From NCBI GenBank assembly GCA_951406725.2, contig OX597820.1, forward strand, positions 16,616,001-16,680,000: a stretch of 64,000 nt of DNA. The letters run 5' to 3'. The DNA comes from Octopus vulgaris. Taxonomy: Eukaryota. The position numbers and the translations under genes were made by a program. Positions 7,985 through 44,571 of this stretch are shown in pieces. The notes beneath the pieces are model-generated. The model had not been told where the DNA came from and searched no databases. It saw only the letters and a list, made by a program, of their open reading frames with translations. How positions within the stretch are numbered: position 1 is the stretch's first letter; every line of letters begins with the position of its first letter.

Positions 7985-8233
7985 TTTATTAAGGCCTCTG
8001 ACCAAAGGTGTTTCAACCATAGCCATCCCTTCAGTTTTGCAGGCATTGTGTATCTAGTTCATACATTATTCAGATTATTCAGTATGTCCTTTTATTTTTA
8101 AGATGATAGGGTGGGTGAACTTTGAGAGAGGTGGGGCTGTTATTCTTAACAGGATGAGTGAGAATGTGGAGGTTACCTCATCGTTTCTATACATATGTAT
8201 GTGTTTATATATATGTGTGTGTTTGTGTATGTA

Positions 8234-8265
<32 letters not shown>

Positions 8266-8387
8266 GTGTACATTCATTTAAACAGGCATCCATCATAGGA
8301 TTCCTTGCATGCTAGAGAGAACAGTTAAATTCCAAACTACTATTAGGGATAAAATTTCGAAGGGAATGAAAAATAAAAACATATACC

Positions 8388-8478
8388 ATCTAACTCCTGG
8401 ACCAATGGTTTCAGACTTTTTTTTAGCAAATAAAATAATTTGCTAGGCGAAGTCTTCTTCAGCAGGTACACCTTAGAT
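8388..8478 (-). ncRNA. Type I hammerhead ribozyme, copy 1 (intact)
   Basis: Minus strand: ATCTAA-ggtgta-CCTG / CTGAAGA / AGACTT-cgcc-TAGCAAAT..ATTTGCTA-a5-AAGTCT / GAAA / CC-att-GG-TC^ / CAGG-ag-TTAGAT; all core nucleotides and three stems present; GUC cleavage between 8400 and 8399. Confidence 0.9.
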
Positions 8479-8844
8479 TAAATATATATACACGAGGCAA
8501 TCCAGTATACGCCCCGTGCTTATACATTCTAATATTTCAAATCTACCGCGCAAGCGCAGCTCCTTGTTGGCAGTAAATAAAATGCCGGCTTTTCAATTCA
8601 AAAATTTTCCAGAAAAATTATCAATAATTAATAATATTAAAGGGTAATTAGAAATATTTGAAATTTCCATTACCAGTGGCCTAGCATGTAAAAATTTAGT
8701 CAATAGACTATAAATACAGTGTACATTTAAACACATAAGAGGTATCCATCATAGGACTACGTACACGCTAGAGAGGACAGTTAAATTCCAAACCACAATT
8801 AGGGTTAAAATTTTGAAAGGGAATGAAAAATAAGAACATTTAGC

Positions 8845-8934
8845 ATCTAACTCCTGGACCAATGGTTTCAGACTTTTTTTAGCAAATAAAATAATTTGCT
8901 AGGCGAAGTCTTCTTCAGCAGGTATACATTTGAT
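8845..8934 (-). ncRNA. Type I hammerhead ribozyme, copy 2 (core intact, distal stem I partly mutated)
   Basis: Identical to copy 1 over core, stems II/III and proximal stem I except one base in the homopolymer; cleavage between 8857 and 8856. Confidence 0.88.
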
Positions 8935-9014
8935 TAAATATATATACATGAGGCAATCCAGTATATGCCCCATGCTTATACATTCTAATTTTTCAAATCT
9001 CTCTCTCTCTCTCC

Positions 9015-9063
<49 letters not shown>

Positions 9064-9152
9064 TAAATATATATATGGATCAAAACAGTTTGATTCAAAT
9101 TCATTACATTATTTACATTTGATGGATATTTATCCTCACCTTGTTTGTTGTT

Positions 9153-9197
9153 AACACAACATTTTGGCTGATATACTCTCCAGCCTTCATCAGGTGT
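9153..9197 (-). ncRNA. Minimal type I hammerhead, inactivated (GAAA>AAAA)
   Basis: Minus strand: ACAC CTGATGA a GGCTGG agagtata TCAGCC AAAA tg TT GTGTT; change is consistent with CpG decay of CCGAAA. Confidence 0.65.
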
Positions 9198-9485
9198 ACT
9201 GGGGGAATTTCGAACCTGAGTTCCCATTCCTAAGGTATTTTTCTGATGTTATTATTATTATTATTATTATTCAGGTCACTGCTTGGAATTGAACTTGGAA
9301 TCTTGGGGTTAGTAGCCCACGCTCTTAACCACTACGACATATGTCTGTGGATGTATGGCGTAGTGGTTAAGAGCGCGGGCTACTAACCCCAAGATTCTGA
9401 GTCAGTGACCTGAATACTACTACTACTAATAATAATATCGGAAAAATACCTTAGGAATGAGAACCTAGGTTCGAAATTCCCCCAG

Positions 9486-9532
9486 GACACCTGATGAAAG
9501 GCTGGAGAATACATCAGCTGAAATGTTGTGTT
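9486..9532 (+). ncRNA. Minimal (Penelope-type) type I hammerhead, degenerate
   Basis: GACAC CTGATGA aa GGCTGG agaataca TCAGCT GAAA tg TT GTGTT; stems I and II pair; stem III vestigial. Confidence 0.7.
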
Positions 9533-12500
9533 AACAACAAAGAAGATGAGGACAAATATCCGTCAAATGTAAATAATGTAAATGCAGAGTATTCTGTGAT
9601 GCATAAATAACTGAATCACTCCAATTTTCAATACTCTAAGTTGCTTGTTTCCAATCATATATCTATATCTATAAACTATTCAGTTGTAAATTGATAACCA
9701 TGTGATAGACTGGCTTTCCATTCAGCTGGAATATTGGTCTGCCTGCCTAGCCAGCTGGGTGGAATCATTTGAAAGCTCCAATAATACTAGGAAGTGCATT
9801 GTGACCAATGGTGTATAACAGCATCTGACAGTCTGGTTGATACAACGATATATACATATGTGTAATAGGCACAGGCATAGCTCTGTGGTAAGAAGCTTGC
9901 TTCCCAATGACACGGTTCCAGGTTCAGTCCCATTGCGTGGCACCTTGGGCAAGTGTCCTCTTCTATAGCCTCAGGCTGACCAAAGCCTTATGAGTGGATT
10001 TGGTAGATGAAAACTGAAAGATCTGAATATATATATGTGTGTATGTGTGTGTATATTTTGTGTCTGTATTTGGTCCCCCCCGTCGCTTGACAATTGGTGT
10101 TGTTGTGTTTATGTTCGCCTAACTTAGCAATTTGGCAAAAGCGATCGATAGAATACATCTTGGGGTTGATTTGTTCGACTAAAAAAACCCCTTTCAAGTG
10201 GCACTCCAGCATGGCTGCTGTGAAATGACTGCAGGGTAGGTCAGGTTTGTCATACAGAGACCTTCAGCTGTGTGAATTAAAATGGTTTATTTACATACTT
10301 ATTTGGCTCACTGATTACAATGGTATTATTCTACTCAGCTGTGTTCAAATTCTGCCACGATTGAAAGGTTAATTTTTGCCTTTCACTATCTTTTGAATGT
10401 GTGGTGGGGTCAAAACAAGTACCTATTCCTTTACTACCCACAAGGGGTTAAACACAGAGGAGACAAACAAGGACAGGCAGACGGATTAAGTCGATTATAT
10501 CGACCCCAGCGCGTAACTGGTACTTATTTAATTGACCCCGAAAGGATGAAAGGCAATGTCAACCTCGGCAGAATTTGAACTCTGAACGTAGCGGAAATAC
10601 CGCTAAGCATTTCGTCCGGCATGCTAACGTTTTTGCCAGCTCGGGGGTTGATGTAATCGATTTACCCTCCCCTTGAAAAAATTGCTGGCCTTGTTCTGAA
10701 ATTTGAAATCTTTATTCTGCTCAACTGTTATTAAGCCAAGGCAGCTCAGGTGGGGGTTGCAGCCATGTGAATTAGTTACTGTGTGCACATATATGTAGGT
10801 GAATGTCATGTGTGGATAACCCTTGTTCTCATAAAGTGGGTGTGCATGTAACTTTAGTACATGAGTGTGTGTGCTAAGAAGGTTTTCATTTTTGAGCTCA
10901 GAGCTGCGGAAAGTAATAAGGAGGATACAGGAGACAGTCAACAAAGCCAGCTTCTATATATGGCTGAAGCAAGATCAAAAATGGCTTGAAAGCCATAACA
11001 TGCTGGCTGGGAAGTACCATCGCTAGGTGAGACTGGCTGACACTTAAGCAGCATCACTGATTGACAGGTAGGGGTCTCATTCATGGTGCCCCCTTCTCCT
11101 GGTTTGAAGGCTTGTACCACCAAACAGCTGGTCGGCTCTAACTGCTGGAACTGAAACTAATACAACACTGTTGGAAGGCAGGTTTAGAGAGGGTGTGGCT
11201 ATAACTACATGCCCTTCCCCTCCATTGGTCAGCTGAAGTTTAAACTGTGTCATGTGACAACTATGTGGTGCTGGCTGCTGGAGCCTACCAGTGAGTATTT
11301 AAAGGGAAATTTGTCAGGATGGTCAGTCACCAGCTGACCCTCGTTGACGCTGCATTGAAGAGGCCAAGGAACAGAAGATAAAAGGAGAAAGAAGAAATGC
11401 ACTCAATACCAGGGCTGATGACACTTCTGAAAGGTGGGGCCCCGCCATGTCAAAAATGGTAGAGGAGTAGGGGCTGAAACCGGACGTGGTTTCTTCTGAT
11501 GATGTCATTAGCCACTGGACCCTATAAAGGAACTGTTGAGGTAGCAAACCATGAAATGTGGTTGAAATTCCTATGTGTGAGTGTGTGTCTGTGTGTGTAT
11601 ATGCCATATGTGCATATTATTGGGCAAGTGTCTTCTTCTATAGCCTCAGGCTGACCAAAGCCTTATGAGTGGATTTGGTAGATGGAAACTAAAAGATCTC
11701 AATATATATACGTGTGTGTGTGTGTGTGTGTGTGTATTTTGTGTCTGTATTTGCCACCGCTTGATAATTGGTGCTGGTGTGTTTACGCTTGCGTAACTTA
11801 GCAATTTGGCAAAATCGATTGATAGAATCATCGTTTAATATGGTCAACCCAGGAACCTCAAATAGAGAATTCCTGGAATGTCTTTAAACTTTTCACTTTA
11901 CCACTAATCAGTTATATTTGAAGAATGTGAATCAGTTTGCTTTGTTCTTTCTTGGAAAAAACCCAGCATTTCTAGACTTTTATGCAAATCAGCACCATTC
12001 AAGTGTGGTCATTGCCAGTGCAGCCTGACTGGCACCTGTGCCGGTGGCACGTAAAAAGCACCTTTCGAGTGTGGTCATTGCTAGTGTTGGTGTGGTCATT
12101 GTTCTGTGGTGGTGGCATGTAAGATGCACCATTCAAGCATGGTCAATGCCAGTACCGCCTGGCTGGTACCTGTGCTGGTGACACATAAAAAGCACCATTT
12201 CAGCGTGGTCAATGCCAGTGCCACCTGACTGATCCTGTGCTGGTGGCATGTAAAAAGTGTGTGTATATGTATAATGATGTCTGTGTGTATGTATGTGTAT
12301 ACACCTGTCTGGATGCATGTGTGTATGTTTCTGTACATATGTATGATTGTGTGTGTGTGTAAATTAATATACGGATGACTGAATATCCATTGCTTTTTTT
12401 CAAATAATAAACTTTTGGTGCAGTATTTCATATGACTATACACTGAAAATATAGAGGGTCTGCAGTTTATACATACACATATCCATATGTATATATATGT

Positions 12501-12660
12501 GTGTGTATGTATAAAAATATATTCAAGTGTCCTTTCAGTGGATTTAAATGAAAAATATTTGGGAATGCTTTATAGATGTTCATTGTTCATGTAAAGTGTT
12601 TCTTATAGTAGGTTTAGTTTTGAGTTATTATTTTCCTGCGTTAACGTTATCCCAAAGGTA

Positions 12661-13068
12661 CTAAAATCGAAATCGATCAACATCAATGGAAATTGTAGCT
12701 GTGATACCAGATACATGTAAGCGAACCATCCGAACGTGGCTGTTGCCAGCCTCGCCTGGACCTGTGCCGGTGGCACGTAGAAAGCACTATCCGATCGTGG
12801 CCGTTGCCAGCCTCGCCTGGACCCCGTGCCGGTGGCACGTAAAAAGCACCATCCGTCTGTGGCCATTTGCCTGCCCTGTCTGGCAACTGTGCGGGTGGCA
12901 CGTAAAAAGCACCCACTACACTCACGGAGTGGTTGGCATTAGGAAGGGCATCCAGCTGTAGAAACACTGCCAGATCAGACTGGGCCTGGTGCAGCCTTCT
13001 GGCTTCCCAGACCCCAGTTGAACTGTCCAACCCATGCTAGCATGGAAAGCGGACGCTAAATGATGATG
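12661..13068 (+). mobile_element. RTE LINE 3'UTR fragment
   Basis: Same 3'UTR as 16934-17400, ending CATGCTAGCATGGAAAGCGGACGCTAAATGATGATG. Confidence 0.8.
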
Positions 13069-16933: not shown

Positions 16934-18027
16934 CATCATCATCATCATCATCGTTTAATGTCCGTTCTCCATGCTAGCCTGGGTTGGACGGTTCGACCGG
17001 GCATCTGGGAAGCCAGAAGGACGCATCATGCTCCGGTCTTATCTGGCAATGTTTCTACAGCTGGATGCCCTTCCTAACGCCAACCACTCCGTGAGTGTAG
17101 TGGGTGCTTTTTACATGCCAACTGCACTGGTGCCAGGTGAGGCTGGCATCGGCCACGGTCGGATTGGTGCATTTTATGTGCCACCGGCACGGAAGCCAGT
17201 CGAGGCGGCACTGGCTTCAGCTACGATTCGGATGGTGCTTTTTACGTGCCACTGACACGGAAGCCAGTCGAGGCGGCGCTGGCATCGGCCACGATTCGGA
17301 TAGTGCTTTTTACGTATCTCCAGTCCAGGGGTCCTAGCATCTGCTGGGTGCCAGTCATAGGATTGGTTCAATCTCGATTTCGATTCCGATTTCACTTGCC
17401 CCAACAGGTCTTCACAAGCATAGGTGCCTGTCGTCGGATGAGGTTCGATATCGATTTTGCTTGCCTCAACAGGTCTTTGTGTGTCCAAGGGAGGAAAGGC
17501 ATGCATAAGTGGGCTGGACTCACTTGTCCTGCCTGGTCTTCTCATGCACAGCATATTTCCAAAGGTCTCGGTCGCTGGTCATTTCCTTGGTGAGACCTAA
17601 AGTTCGAAGGTCGTGCTTCACCACCTCGTCCCAGGTTTTCCTGGGTCTACCTCTTCCACGGGTTCCCTCCACTGCTAGGGATTGGCACTTTTTCACACAC
17701 CTATCTTCATCCATTCTCGCCACATGACCATACCAGCGCAATCGTCTCTCTTGCACACCACAACTGATGCTCCTTAGGTCCAACATTTCTCTCAGGGTAC
17801 TAATGCTCTGTCGAGTATGCACACTGACATTACACATCCATCGGAGCATACTGGCTTCATTTCTTGCGAGCTTACGCATATCCTCAGCAGTCACGGCCCA
17901 TGTTTCACTGCCATGTAGCATGGCTGTTCGTACACATGCATCATACAGTCTGCCTTTTACTCTGAGCGAGAGGCCTTTAGTCACCAGCAGAGGTAAGAGC
18001 TCCCTAAACTTTGCCCAGGCTATTCTG
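16934..18027 (-). mobile_element. 5'-truncated RTE-clade LINE: ORF2 C-terminus (17520-17984), 3'UTR with ~55-bp tandem units and (TGA)n tail
   Basis: ORF with KGRLYDACVRTAMLHGSETW, RRLRWYGHVARM and GRGRPRKTW motifs typical of RTE C-terminal regions. Confidence 0.9.
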
Positions 18028-20452
18028 ATAATGTTATAAAATGAGTAAAGATATAAAACAAATAAATTATTTATTAATCAATTTTCCTGGTGTTGAGTCA
18101 GGAGTGTTGAATTGGCGTTGGTGAGTTGTCCCTATTTTTTGTTTCTTTGTTGTTATGCTAATTCATTTTTGTCAGATTATTATTATTATTATTATTAAGG
18201 CATTGAGTTGACAGAATCGTTAGCATGCTGGGTGGAATGCTCACTGTATTTCATCAAATCGAAATCACTGACGTGGGCAATGAATACTGCCCGATTGGCA
18301 CTCATACCAGTGGAACGTTAAAAGCACATCTCAGTGTGATTATTGCAAGGGCCATGGACTGGCTCCCGTGCTGGTGGCATGTAAAAAGCACCATTTAAGC
18401 ATGATCATTGCCAGTGTCGCCTTACCTGCACGTGCTGGTGGCATGTGAAAAACAACATTCGAGCGTTGTTGTTGCCAGTGCTGCCAGACTGGCTCCTGTG
18501 CAGGTAGCATGTAAAACACACCTTTTGAGTGTGGTCGTTGCCAGAACTGCCTGATAGGCCCTCGTGCCAGTGGCACGTAAAAGCACCCACTACACTCTCA
18601 GAGTGGTTGGCATTAGGAAGGGTATCCAGCTGTAGAAACTTTGCCAGATCAGATTGGAACCTGGTGCATCAGGTCGAGTGGACCATTCCACTCAAAAGGC
18701 CACTAATTATTATTGTTATTATTATTATTATTATTAGGCAATTCCTAAGAAGGTGACTTTACCTTTCATCCTTTTGGGGTCAATAAGTACCACTTGAGTA
18801 CTGGGGTCAGTGTAATTGACTAACCTCCTCCCGCAAGTTTTCGAGCTTTTTGTCTATAATAGAAAGAATTAGAGGTGGCAAGCAATGTTTCATTGCATTT
18901 CTTCTGGCTTTGCGTTCTGAGTTCAAATTCCACTGGGATTATCTTCCCTTTCATTCTTTTGGGATCAACAAAATAAGTACCAGTTGATCACTAGGGTTGA
19001 TGCAGTTGGTTAGGCTTTCCCCTAAAAATTGCCTTTCATCCTTTTGGTGTCAATGGAGTTAGGGTTAAGCGCTGTTAAGCTCTACAAAATTTCAGGTCGC
19101 CCTAAAGTAGATAGGATTATTATTATTATTATTATTATTATCCATAGGTAGCAAGCTGGCAGAATTGTTAGCATGCTGGGCGAAATGCTTAGCGGTATTT
19201 CATCCGTCTTTACGTTCTGAGATCAAATTCCACCGAGGTCAACTTTGCTTGTCATCTTTTCAGAGTTCATAAATCAAGTACCAGTCAAGTATTGGGGTTG
19301 ATGTGATTGACTGTCCCCCCTCTCCATAAAAAACCAGGTCGCCCTAAAGTAGAAAGGATTATTATTATTATTATTATTATTTATCTTTGTCATCACCATC
19401 ATCATCATCGTCATCATCTGAATATTTTCCTGCCTTGATCCTAATGTCATCAATATATATCCAAGCTTTATAATTCGCCTTATTGTCTTGTTTGCTCTGT
19501 ACTTCACTGAAATGGCTATATGTAACAAACATATTTTGCTCCTTTCTTTTTATCATTATTATTGTTATTATTGTTTTGCTCTGTATGAAATTGCATGTTA
19601 TATATATATACACACACATATAGGTACAATGTTGACTTTCTGGACACTGATGGTTCGGAACCTCTTGTAATCCATACTAATTTACAAGCAGGAACTTCAA
19701 ATTCCTGCAGCCACCAGACTAGTTTAGTGCGGTGCTTTGCAACCTTTTTTCACCTGCGATACACTTATATTCCTTTCAGAATCCGGCAGCACACCTGAAC
19801 TAAAAATATAATTAAAAGTATAGGGAAAAAAAATTATGTTCAGGTTACACTGCGGCACACCTAGCATCGTCTAGTGGCACACCAGTGTGCCATGGCATAC
19901 CGGCTGCAGAGCTTTGGTTTAATGGTACCTTGCACATTATAGTATTAATAAACTTGTTTAGCATGCTGGGCGAAATGCTTATCGGCATTTCGTCTGTCTT
20001 TACGTTCTGAGCTCAAATTCTGCTGAGGTTGACTTTGCCTTTCAGGGTTGATAAATTAAGTATCAGTTGTGTACTGAGGTCGATCTAATCGACTTGCCCC
20101 TCTCCCCCAAAATTTTGGGCCTAGAGTAGAAAAGAGTATTAATTTACTTGTATCATTTATACTGATATACAGATACCTATATTTCAAATAATTATTTAAT
20201 TAAATTTAATATTTATTTAATTTAGCACGTGTTGACCAAAGTGACCTTTATTGGTTTGGAAAAAATAATCAGTAAACCAGAAAGGCTTTGGAAGCAAAGG
20301 TCCTAGAAAGACAATGTTGTACCTGTATATATATATATATATATATAAATAAACAATCTTTGCTGCTGCAAAGCTATTGTATCCTACATTTATTTATCAG
20401 TATCTTTTGTTCTCTTTTCCTTCCCTTTCATTCATTTTGGAATGGTTACCAG

Positions 20453-33049: not shown

Positions 33050-34331
33050 GTATATTAAAAATGAGCTAAAGTTCTTGGTCACTTGTCACTGCCACTGTGA
33101 GGTCCGACATTTGAAAGGTGCTTTGTGTGTGCCAATGGCACAGGATCCAAGTATGTGACACTGGCATTGGCCACGACTGCAATTTCACTTGACTTGATGG
33201 GTCATTCGCAAGCATGGCATATCGTTAAAGGTCTGGGTCCCTTAGATAGTACATCTTGTGTGTGCTGTTAGATGTACAATTGCTACTGTTTAGTGTAGAG
33301 CTCCATTTAGAGTATCATCATCCAACCTACTTCCGTTATAGTGGTTTGTTTACTACTATCATCATCGTTTAGCATCCGCTTTCCATGCTAGCATGGGTTG
33401 GACGGTTCAACTGGGGTCTGGGAAGCCAGGAGGTTGCACCAGGCTCCAGTCTGATCTGGCGATGTTTCTACGGCTGGATGCCCTTCCTATCGCCAACCAC
33501 TCTGTGAGTGTAGTGGGTGCTTTTTACGTGCCACCGGCACAGGTGCCAGACGGGGCTGGCAAACGGCCACAGTCGGATGGTGCTTTTTACGTTCCACCGA
33601 CACGGGGGCCAGGCGAGGCTGACAACGGCCATGATCGGATGGTAGCAGTATTACTGGTTGTGATATGCAGAGCAAATATAAGAAATCTGTTGTGATTAAG
33701 CATCCTTTTGTACTTGGAACATCGAATGCAGGCGCTCCAGACAACCACAATGATGGGATGTACATAGGGTACAAATAATATAGACTTGTGTTTATCATAA
33801 TTTCTTACACAGTGTTTAGTTTTCCATTAAGGGTAAGATCAACAAAAAAACTACTCTATCCAGTGTGAGAGATAAATATCATTTAATGTACAAAGTATAG
33901 AGATACTAGCTGCTAATAGTTTCTTGCTGTGGAAAACTATATTTAGGCAGGTTTTTAAAACATGCATTATGTCACCAAGCAATCTTTCTCTTGATCTTAT
34001 CTTAACAGAACAGTAAGCTACGCATGCACACACACACACATATATAGTATAGAGCTATGGTCAGGTGGTGTGTGAAGTTGGATATTTACAGAGAAGCACT
34101 CGACTCGAATTCCAGGCCAAACCCGGAATTCTTCAGGTGTAGAAAAATTCAAGTTTCATGACAATTACACCATCAAATAGGTTTGGCGAAGAGTAAATTA
34201 TCCACTAATTCTTTACCACATCTTTAATTATAAGTTACAATTGTTTCCGTATCATCTAGAGATTGTATGGAAACAACTGTAACTTATAATTAAAGATGTG
34301 TTAAAGAATTTTCCTTGTCTTCTTCTTTTCA

Positions 34332-43803: not shown

Positions 43804-44571
43804 TATGTATGTGTGTGTATATATTGGCCGATGCCAGCGCTGCCTCGACTGGCTTCCGTGTCGGTGGCACGTAAAAAGCACCATCCGAATCGTGGCCGAA
43901 GCCAGTGCCGCCTCGACTGGCTCCCGTGCAGGTGGCATGTAAAATGCACCAATCCGACCGTGGCCGATGCCAGCCTCGCCTGGCACCAGTGCAGGTGGCA
44001 CGTAAAAAGCACCCACTACACTCACGGACTGGTTGGCGTTAGGAAGGGCATCCAGCTGTAGAAACATTGCCAGAAAAGACCGGAGCCTGGTGCAGCCTTC
44101 TGGCTTCCCAGATCCCCGGTCGAACCGTCCAACCCATGCTAGCATGGAAAATGGACGTTAAACAATGATGATGATATATAATACTTGGAAGAAGAAGAAA
44201 ATGACGCGTGCGTTCAATCATATAATAACAATTTAACAAATAAAACATTTGCATACATACATACTTACATACATATATGTACATACCTGCATCTATATGT
44301 ATATCTACATGCATATATGAGTACAGGACACCACAAATAAACGTAGAACACAACGAGAAGCGAAAACATAAAATCAAACAAAAAACGGCCTTTTTTTAAT
44401 GACAAAACAGAGTACAAGACAAACAACACAAGGAACATTCCCCTTCTTCAGCTGCCCCTGTTTCGACTCAATGCGTGTGAAAGAATAGCTGACAATTTGT
44501 AACATTGGTATTTAAAAAAATCTTCATTATCTTACAGCTGTTTCAATACCTTTCCTGAAACTACGCTGTTA

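What the first reader, a model, noticed from the sequence alone, without database searches (positions are those of the whole stretch)
8265..9000. Tandem intact hammerhead ribozymes 457 nt apart: candidate cephalopod retrozyme encoding a circular RNA
Seen: a non-coding direct repeat offset by 457 nt. On the minus strand each copy has a complete type I hammerhead (CUGAAGA, GAAA, GUC site, stems I-III), with predicted cuts at 8857/8856 and 8400/8399. About 80 nt of ribozyme are identical between copies except one homopolymer base, while the adjacent ~105 nt differ at roughly 15 positions by eye. That contrast suggests the ribozyme was preserved by function. Established: non-LTR retrozymes of other animals are tandem HHR repeats that self-cleave to monomers and circularise. 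Inference: this is such an element, producing a 457-nt monomer/circRNA and mobilised in trans. I do not know of a described octopus family like it.
Basis: partly seen in the sequence, partly recalled or inferred. Interest (0 to 1): 0.92.

Follow-up and report, generated by a model that had tools for sequence, protein, structure and literature searches.

The report
Penelope-spread hammerhead ribozyme repeat
This is an old copy of a small non-coding jumping element that carries a self-cutting RNA, and its hundreds of relatives bear the insertion marks of a Penelope-type retrotransposon, which points to the enzyme that spreads such elements in animals.

Summary
In detail: two type I hammerheads lie on the minus strand, with cuts at 8857/8856 and 8400/8399, bounding a 457-nt non-coding unit present in 1.6 copies.

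The locus is one of several hundred dispersed copies (163-723 exact short-word hits) of a ~470-nt unit with at least three sister families. Across the families every hammerhead stem except III changes in a compensatory way, stem III stays palindromic, and the core shifts C3-G8 to U3-A8. The ribozyme was therefore selected in source lineages.

The copies are not arrays. They are 5'-truncated, end at two fixed internal sites, run into (TA)n, and often form inverted pairs with one long and one short end (33 of 34 classifiable pairs). Young Neptune-like Penelope elements in the same genome show the same signature (15 of 16; 7 of 7). No coding element shares the unit.

Best reading: a non-autonomous, retrozyme-type element mobilised in trans by a Neptune-like reverse transcriptase. 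Copies are ~4.6% decayed and their ribozymes decay neutrally. The window's two repeats differ in subfamily alleles, and preservation of this locus is unproven. Cleavage and a circular RNA are not shown; an uncut tandem transcript would serve as template equally well.

The parts
8266..9000 (-). Whole insertion: 5'-truncated, 1.6 units of the ~470-nt family unit (this copy's unit is 456-457 nt), ending at the family's short 3' end
8844..8927 (-). Type I hammerhead, upstream copy; core CUGAAGA 8918-8912, predicted cut 8857/8856
8387..8471 (-). Type I hammerhead, downstream copy; core CUGAAGA 8462-8456, predicted cut 8400/8399
8400..8856 (-). Predicted cut-to-cut monomer, 457 nt, 33% GC, non-coding; folds as a circle at z -2.9 (0 of 60 shuffles as stable)
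   Evidence: its existence as RNA is not shown
8768..8843 (-). Intron-like stretch (GT, CYTAAY, pyrimidines, CTAG) in the upstream copy; the GT is changed to CT here
   Evidence: splicing is inferred, not shown
8312..8386 (-). Intron-like stretch in the downstream copy, GT and AG intact
   Evidence: splicing is inferred, not shown
8624..8708 (-). 85-nt 'tail' between the family's short and long 3' ends, holding two conserved hairpins, one with compensatory changes
8188..8265 (.). (TA)n/(CA)n microsatellite at the 3' end: the family's usual target
8998..9075 (.). (GA)n/(TA)n/(GT)n microsatellite at the 5' junction

Best explanation
A decayed member of a non-autonomous, hammerhead-bearing ~470-nt element (retrozyme type) that was copied in trans by a Neptune-like Penelope protein. 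Steps: (1) a source holding more than one unit is transcribed (inferred); (2) the ribozyme can cut after GUC, probably as a double hammerhead through its palindromic stem III (structure and selection shown by covariation; cleavage inferred); (3) the helper endonuclease opens a (TA)n microsatellite (target shown; enzyme inferred); (4) reverse transcription starts at two internal sites about 148 and 233 nt downstream of the cut, one site on each DNA end, giving an inverted pair with one long and one short end (pattern shown; mechanism from published in vitro work on another Penelope element); (5) most cDNAs run through the cut site, so the template was a ligated circle or an uncut tandem RNA (read-through shown; which one is open); (6) synthesis stops early, leaving copies under two units that then decay neutrally (shown). 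The window copy is such a product, with only a short-end arm, long enough to hold two ribozymes.
For: Copy number: 163, 307 and 723 exact hits for three short words, reversed controls 0, 1, 0. Covariation over 53 ribozymes of three families: 89.7% of cells paired against 21-45% in slid controls; both-side changes G-C to A-U (13) and U-A to C-G (10) in stem I, C-G to U-A (21) in stem II. In family 2, C3-G8 6, U3.G8 9, U3-A8 6 of 22 parsed. Stem III is a palindrome of different sequence in further lineages. Sample picked on a word outside the ribozyme (92 elements, 86 loci): 79 end at two sites, 52 have an inverted arm, 57 of 69 that reach the cut read through it, inverted pairs are 33 long+short, 1 short+short, 0 long+long, 15 unclassified. 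42 of 52 such ends run into (TA)n/(CA)n, against 3 of 17 other ends and 14% of random windows. Two young Penelope families with intact 784-811 aa frames and a CxxxxCxxC linker show the same target and asymmetry, 15 of 16 and 7 of 7 pairs, and carry a minimal hammerhead with GAAACCGGUA and U3-A8. Repeats of one locus usually share the subfamily site (24 of 26 direct, 33 of 38 inverted, 52% at random).
Against: No sequence similarity between the unit and either Neptune-like family or the neighbouring Poseidon-like family, so the helper is assigned by signature only; Naiad elements also target (TA)n (PMC8557442 passages). The helpers found are far younger (95-99% and about 94% protein identity) than the family (median 4.6% from consensus), so the true helper may be an older relative. 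The 148-nt cut-to-end distance matches one Neptune-like family (147-153 nt in 30 of 32 arms) but not the other (about 60 nt). No source array was found. Rfam does not recognise the ribozyme. Only 8 of 36 complete ribozymes in the unbiased set keep core and stems intact.
Confidence: 0.75

Rival explanations
1. This locus is a live source kept by selection: it is transcribed and yields a 457-nt monomer or circle today.
For: Both ribozymes match the family majority over the core region, which only 4 of 77 complete copies do; the upstream unit is among the least diverged pieces (1.9%). The unit folds well as a circle.
Against: The locus was picked because its ribozymes look intact. Ribozymes decay neutrally across the family. 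The upstream copy has a 14-nt deletion and a broken GT in the conserved intron-like stretch. Its deletion junction occurs in only one other held locus, which lacks the window copy's type-2 alleles at three subfamily sites. Local gene conversion could also homogenise 85 nt.
Confidence: 0.15
2. The repeats are the pseudo-LTRs of an autonomous Penelope-like element whose coding part I did not find, and the short copies are ordinary truncation products.
For: Tail asymmetry, inverted arms, microsatellite target, hammerhead and an intron-like stretch are all Penelope features (PMC8557442, PMC11167929).
Against: Long copies extend upstream into the previous unit, never into coding sequence. 20 loci fetched around ribozyme hits, most with about 4 kb upstream, show no Penelope frame or shared upstream sequence.
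Confidence: 0.07
3. Classical array-forming retrozyme amplified by rolling-circle reverse transcription of an abundant circular RNA, as described for coral, mussel and axolotl.
For: Most copies read through the cut (57 of 69). Repeats of one locus share rare variants three times more often than random pairs (9.8% vs 3.1%). 12 copies stop within 140-151, around the cut at 145, against 4.4 expected (p=0.002), as if some templates had been cut in vivo.
Against: No element of two units or more in 92, longest 912 nt in another 69, and no triple among the 100 listed ribozyme hits. Published work on a Penelope element found unprocessed RNA to be the main template and cleavage dispensable in vitro (PMC11167929). 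The pile-up near the cut may be pausing at the ribozyme fold, and BLAST ends are fuzzy.
Confidence: 0.3
4. A chance hammerhead-like pattern in a local duplication.
For: No Rfam hit; modest folding z-scores.
Against: 0 hits in 20 shuffles; family-wide covariation.
Confidence: 0.02

Closest known systems
Non-LTR retrozymes of animals (Cervera and de la Pena 2020, PMC7229834; Li, Clavereau and Pollet 2026, bioRxiv 10.64898/2026.07.22.740005)
   Same: Non-coding, low-GC unit of a few hundred bases with one type I hammerhead per unit, short stem III, many genomic copies, co-existing with Penelope-like elements; a mismatch at the base of helix II also occurs in an axolotl family.
   Different: Unit 457-484 nt, above the 150-450 nt given in the 2020 paper. 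No arrays: copies stay under two units, are 5'-truncated and often inverted. Stem II carries an extra hairpin. An intron-like stretch and a structured 85-nt tail are conserved. No sequence link to a known pseudo-LTR, unlike the Xenopus families. Circular RNA not shown. Neither main text mentions octopus or cephalopods.
Neptune-clade Penelope-like elements (PMC8557442); mechanism from the anole Poseidon element (PMC11167929)
   Same: (TA)n target, 5' truncation, partial tandems, inverted 5' arm, optional tail between two internal start sites of reverse transcription, hammerhead upstream of those sites, U3-A8 core variant.
   Different: No reading frame; tail 85 nt instead of 30-40; larger, canonical-like ribozyme instead of a minimal one; no alignable sequence with the families found here.
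Plant LTR retrozymes (as described in the two retrozyme papers read)
   Same: Two ribozyme-bearing direct repeats around a short unique middle, as the window copy appears in isolation.
   Different: Type I, not type III; the 'LTR' look is an artefact of truncation, since other copies start at any point of the unit; Penelope-type ends rather than Gypsy-type.

Membership tests
Type I hammerhead ribozyme | CUGANGA, GAAA, NUH core with stems I-III in type I order | tested here: met
   covariation
Type I hammerhead ribozyme | Match to an Rfam hammerhead model | tested here: not met
   no hit
Type I hammerhead ribozyme | Self-cleavage in Mg2+ | not testable with these tools
   needs in vitro transcription
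Animal non-LTR retrozyme | Short non-coding low-GC unit with one type I hammerhead, many genomic copies | tested here: met
Animal non-LTR retrozyme | Two consecutive complete ribozymes in direct repeat | tested here: met
   window and other dimers
Animal non-LTR retrozyme | Tandem repeats of two or more full units (dimers to multimers) | tested here: not met
   0 of 92; longest 912 nt of 69; no array by TRF in the window; only part of the family was sampled
Animal non-LTR retrozyme | Expressed as linear monomer and circular RNA | not testable with these tools
   only assembled contigs of runs guessed to be RNA were on offer
Animal non-LTR retrozyme | Target-site duplication longer than 4 bp where present | tested here: inconclusive
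   window flanks are microsatellites; not examined across loci
Animal non-LTR retrozyme | Sequence kinship to a Penelope pseudo-LTR (2026 preprint) | tested here: inconclusive
   no similarity to three Penelope families sampled; other families not examined
Penelope-like element, autonomous | RT plus GIY-YIG reading frame joined to the repeat | tested here: not met
Penelope-mobilised element | 5' truncation, partial tandem, inverted 5' arm, tail at one end | tested here: met
Penelope-mobilised element, Neptune or Naiad type | Insertion into (TA)n microsatellites | tested here: met
Neptune clade (candidate helpers) | RT, then CX2-5CxxC linker, then C-terminal GIY-YIG | tested here: met
   the GIY-YIG Pfam score is below its cut-off (E 0.016)
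Neptune clade (candidate helpers) | Phylogenetic placement of the RT | not tested
   no reference proteins at hand; no tree built
Plant LTR retrozyme | Type III hammerhead in fixed terminal repeats | tested here: not met
   type I; 5' ends vary along the unit

The most novel reading that the evidence does not exclude
A cephalopod superfamily of intron-carrying retrozymes whose circular RNA is copied by a Neptune protein dimer. The two subunits start at different structured sites, always one long and one short, which would name the enzyme and the geometry by which animal retrozymes spread. The window copy is one of the few dimers still able to cut out a monomer.
Probability: 0.22. Interest if true: 0.72.

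Novelty: new variant of a known kind. Interest (0 to 1): 0.5.

Why it matters
Which enzyme mobilises animal retrozymes, and how, is open: the 2020 paper names Penelope-like elements as candidates, and the 2026 preprint argues from co-occurrence and sequence kinship while leaving the mechanism open. Here hundreds of insertions record the reaction itself, and their signature matches young, intact Neptune-like elements of the same genome. With the published in vitro Penelope assay the pairing is directly testable. The near-strict one-long, one-short rule (33 of 34, 15 of 16, 7 of 7) also bears on Penelope mechanism, since the in vitro study saw no strand difference in start site. The sister families give a natural series of hammerhead variants. 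The single locus flagged is probably a fossil.

Tried and rejected
Rfam: no hammerhead family hit.

Expression: no RNA holder listed. Four runs guessed to be RNA, all assembled contigs, were laid on 8545-9000. They hold 9 to 32 short family pieces each, of mixed identity. None spans the unit, none shows a splice joint over the intron-like stretch, and the covering contigs read other letters than the window at 8759, 8797 and 8805. This is no evidence on expression or circularity. Their loose ends were useful only as leads to sister families.

Ribozyme pairs spaced 4.4 kb, 2.2 kb, 639 and 758 nt, tried as full-length coding elements: separate short copies, no Penelope frame between them. Two loci share a nearby LINE fragment in different arrangements, taken as coincidence.

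The neighbouring inverted repeat as helper: no similarity to the unit. The covariance model on 12 Neptune-like loci: only weak hits, best E 0.08, the two inspected lying on microsatellite. A model search of the whole genome could not be run, so distant ribozyme relatives were sampled only through exact words.

The 148-nt cut-to-end distance as a general rule: fails for the second Neptune-like family. A pile-up of 5' ends at unit position 1 is an artefact of my monomer reference. The long/short counts for the Neptune-like family printed ('SS 16') came from a faulty pattern; the corrected count is and agrees with the sequences.

A 23-base ribozyme word has no match in viral or metagenome contigs. 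Four window frames gave no informative Pfam hit, so the host gene context is unknown. Three look-ups in earlier findings returned nothing.

Full report
Observation. Coordinates 'q' count along the minus strand from window 9000. The window carries a direct repeat of about 290 nt with a 456-457 nt offset, between microsatellites. Each copy has a full type I hammerhead with cuts at 8857/8856 and 8400/8399. My descriptor finds only these two sites in the window and none in 20 shuffles. Rfam finds nothing. The cut-to-cut unit is 457 nt, non-coding, and folds as a circle at z -2.9. The genome has 2.8 Gb in 227 contigs.

A dispersed family. A DNA search scored 40 of 3970 candidates and gave copies on many contigs, the 30 best at 84-100% identity including the window itself. 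Exact words give 163 hits for the ribozyme 3' half, 307 for a word downstream of it and 723 for a word shared with sister lineages; reversed controls give 0, 1, 0. To avoid picking on the ribozyme I fetched 90 loci around the first 100 listed of the 307 hits and dropped 4 overlapping duplicates. Of 92 elements, 43 end near q292, 36 near q377 and 13 elsewhere. The median length is 230 nt; 11 reach one unit and none two; 52 have an inverted arm at the 5' end. In an earlier set, 42 of 52 ends at those two sites run into (TA)n or (CA)n, against 3 of 17 other ends and 14% of random windows, and none of 69 3' ends lies at the cut. Of 49 inverted pairs, 33 are long+short, 1 short+short, 0 long+long, and 15 have an unclassifiable end. 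Long copies wrap into the previous unit. 20 loci fetched around ribozyme hits, most with about 4 kb upstream, showed no Penelope frame, and the three family loci with Penelope fragments had them separated from the unit.

The ribozyme was selected in source lineages. Loose ends of public contigs led to two sister families 66-76% identical over the whole unit with the same architecture. On 53 ribozymes that I chose from the three families (9, 21, 23), 89.7% of cells pair, against 21-45% in slid controls, with both-side changes in stems I and II and the inner hairpin. The sequences are related, so these counts reflect a few lineage events. Family 2 shows C3-G8, U3.G8 and U3-A8 in 6, 9 and 6 of 22 parsed copies, 5 not parsed; U3-A8 is a known Penelope core variant (PMC4209133). 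Further lineages have other stem II sequences and palindromic stem III (ACCAUGGU, ACCUAGGU, ACUAUGCAUAGU; read by eye), which fits dimeric cleavage as described in that paper. Two more conserved parts emerged. The 85-nt tail has two hairpins, one with compensatory changes. An intron-like stretch q158-233 has GT in 51 of 56, a branch-like motif in 29 of 56 and a pyrimidine-YAG acceptor in 46 of 56 family-1 copies, and 18, 16 and 17 of 18 in family 3. Family 2 was barely parsed, and no intron-less copy was found among held loci.

Copies decay neutrally; this locus is unproven. Median divergence from the family majority is 4.6% over 181 pieces, 13 duplicate loci dropped. That is roughly 13 My on the calibration quoted in PMC13282606, a loose figure. 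Private substitutions are 4.3% in the ribozyme and 4.7% elsewhere (p=0.29); the catalytic core is at 3.0% (p=0.08); with polymorphic sites included the ribozyme is lower (5.0% vs 6.7%, p=0.0002), as expected from selection on sources. Only 8 of 36 complete ribozymes keep core and stems. In the window, 7 of the 15 differences next to the ribozyme are family polymorphisms: the upstream copy has a short patch of the other subfamily's alleles. The window is one of 2 of 26 dimers discordant at the main site. Its upstream copy also lacks 14 nt and the intron-like GT. Still, both ribozymes are substitution-free over the core region, as only 4 of 77 are. Ascertainment or local conversion can explain this; selection cannot be excluded.

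The likely helper. A Penelope fragment beside one copy led to a young family: 150 scored of 9010 candidates at 95-100% protein identity, many with frames of 800 aa or more. [quoted passage not shown] In 16 loci that I picked as inverted neighbours, arms run into (TA)n and 15 have one short end and one with a tail of about 35 nt. A second family gives 7 of 7 pairs. Both carry a minimal hammerhead with U3-A8 and GAAACCGGUA. The cut-to-short-end distance is 147-153 nt in the first, like the 148 nt of the unit, but about 60 nt in the second. No alignable sequence links them to the unit, and they are younger than it.

Mechanism. PMC11167929 (parts 1-2 of 4 read) shows a Penelope protein cutting AT-rich DNA on both strands and starting reverse transcription at two internal RNA sites that bound the tail; ribozyme cleavage was dispensable. 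This accounts for the ends seen here. 57 of 69 elements that reach the cut read through it, so the template was continuous there: a circle or an uncut tandem. 12 stop at q140-151 against 4.4 expected (p=0.002; 6 vs 2.3, p=0.03, for q142-147), a hint that some templates were cut. Direct repeats of one locus share rare variants more often than random pairs (9.8% vs 3.1%; inverted arms 17.1%), which fits one source lineage per insertion but does not decide between circle and tandem.

Comparison and novelty. The closest kind is the animal non-LTR retrozyme: PMC7229834 (parts 2-4 of 6 and passages read; supplement unreadable) and bioRxiv 10.64898/2026.07.22.740005 (parts 1-3 of 5 read; supplements not seen). 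It works like one and meets most criteria, but fails the array criterion in my sample, and circles are untested; I file it as a variant. Searches for a described cephalopod family returned none. The main texts of both retrozyme papers lack 'octopus' and 'cephalopod'. A 2026 Octopus vulgaris repeat annotation (PMC13282606; passages and one supplement searched) has no mention of ribozymes. The readable supplement of PMC4209133 (part 1 of 4 and passages read) has no octopus entry; one file could not be searched. PMC3846280 was seen as passages only. Unread supplements, subscription papers, Repbase and Dfam may already hold this family.

Verdict. A real ribozyme-bearing non-autonomous element with a clear Penelope insertion record and a testable helper; the flagged locus is most likely a well-preserved fossil. 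Interest 0.5.

Noticed in passing
window 9104-9581: Head-to-head inverted pair of truncated 3' ends of an autonomous Poseidon-like Penelope element. Each arm has a tRNA-like head, (AAT)n and a degenerate minimal hammerhead. 382 exact 31-base hits; the same segment follows the RT/GIY-YIG-like frame in several loci. A tRNA-like segment inside a Penelope terminal repeat is unexplained.
   Followed up: partly
L243, L246-L261: Very young Neptune-like family with intact 811-aa frames, 9010 candidates, inserted in (TA)n as inverted pairs; probably still active.
   Followed up: partly
L262-L270: Second young Neptune-like family (784-785 aa) with a long (CTT)n/(CAT)n stretch in its 3' untranslated part and a minimal U3-A8 hammerhead.
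   Followed up: partly
L213-L242: At least four more hammerhead lineages of the same superfamily, with different stem II and palindromic stem III sequences, one with a GUA site.
   Followed up: partly
run X14, record 9: A 456-nt contig of depth 141 from another organism code matches only 8669-8712; its loose end resembles family 3. Its length is close to one unit; the rest of its sequence could not be read.
   Followed up: no
L070, about 480 nt upstream of the match: Another hammerhead-like motif with a GCC-UAGACCAAUCUUU-GGUC arm before GAAAC at the end of a LINE-like fragment, seen in the printed flank.
   Followed up: no
window 17520-18077, minus strand: 185-codon frame resembling the C-terminal end of an RTE-type LINE protein (resemblance recalled; no significant Pfam hit).
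   Followed up: partly
window 11991-12913, 17103-17315, 18357-18582, 33516-33643, 43825-44013: Recurrent 63-68 nt tandem units of one interspersed repeat family.
   Followed up: no
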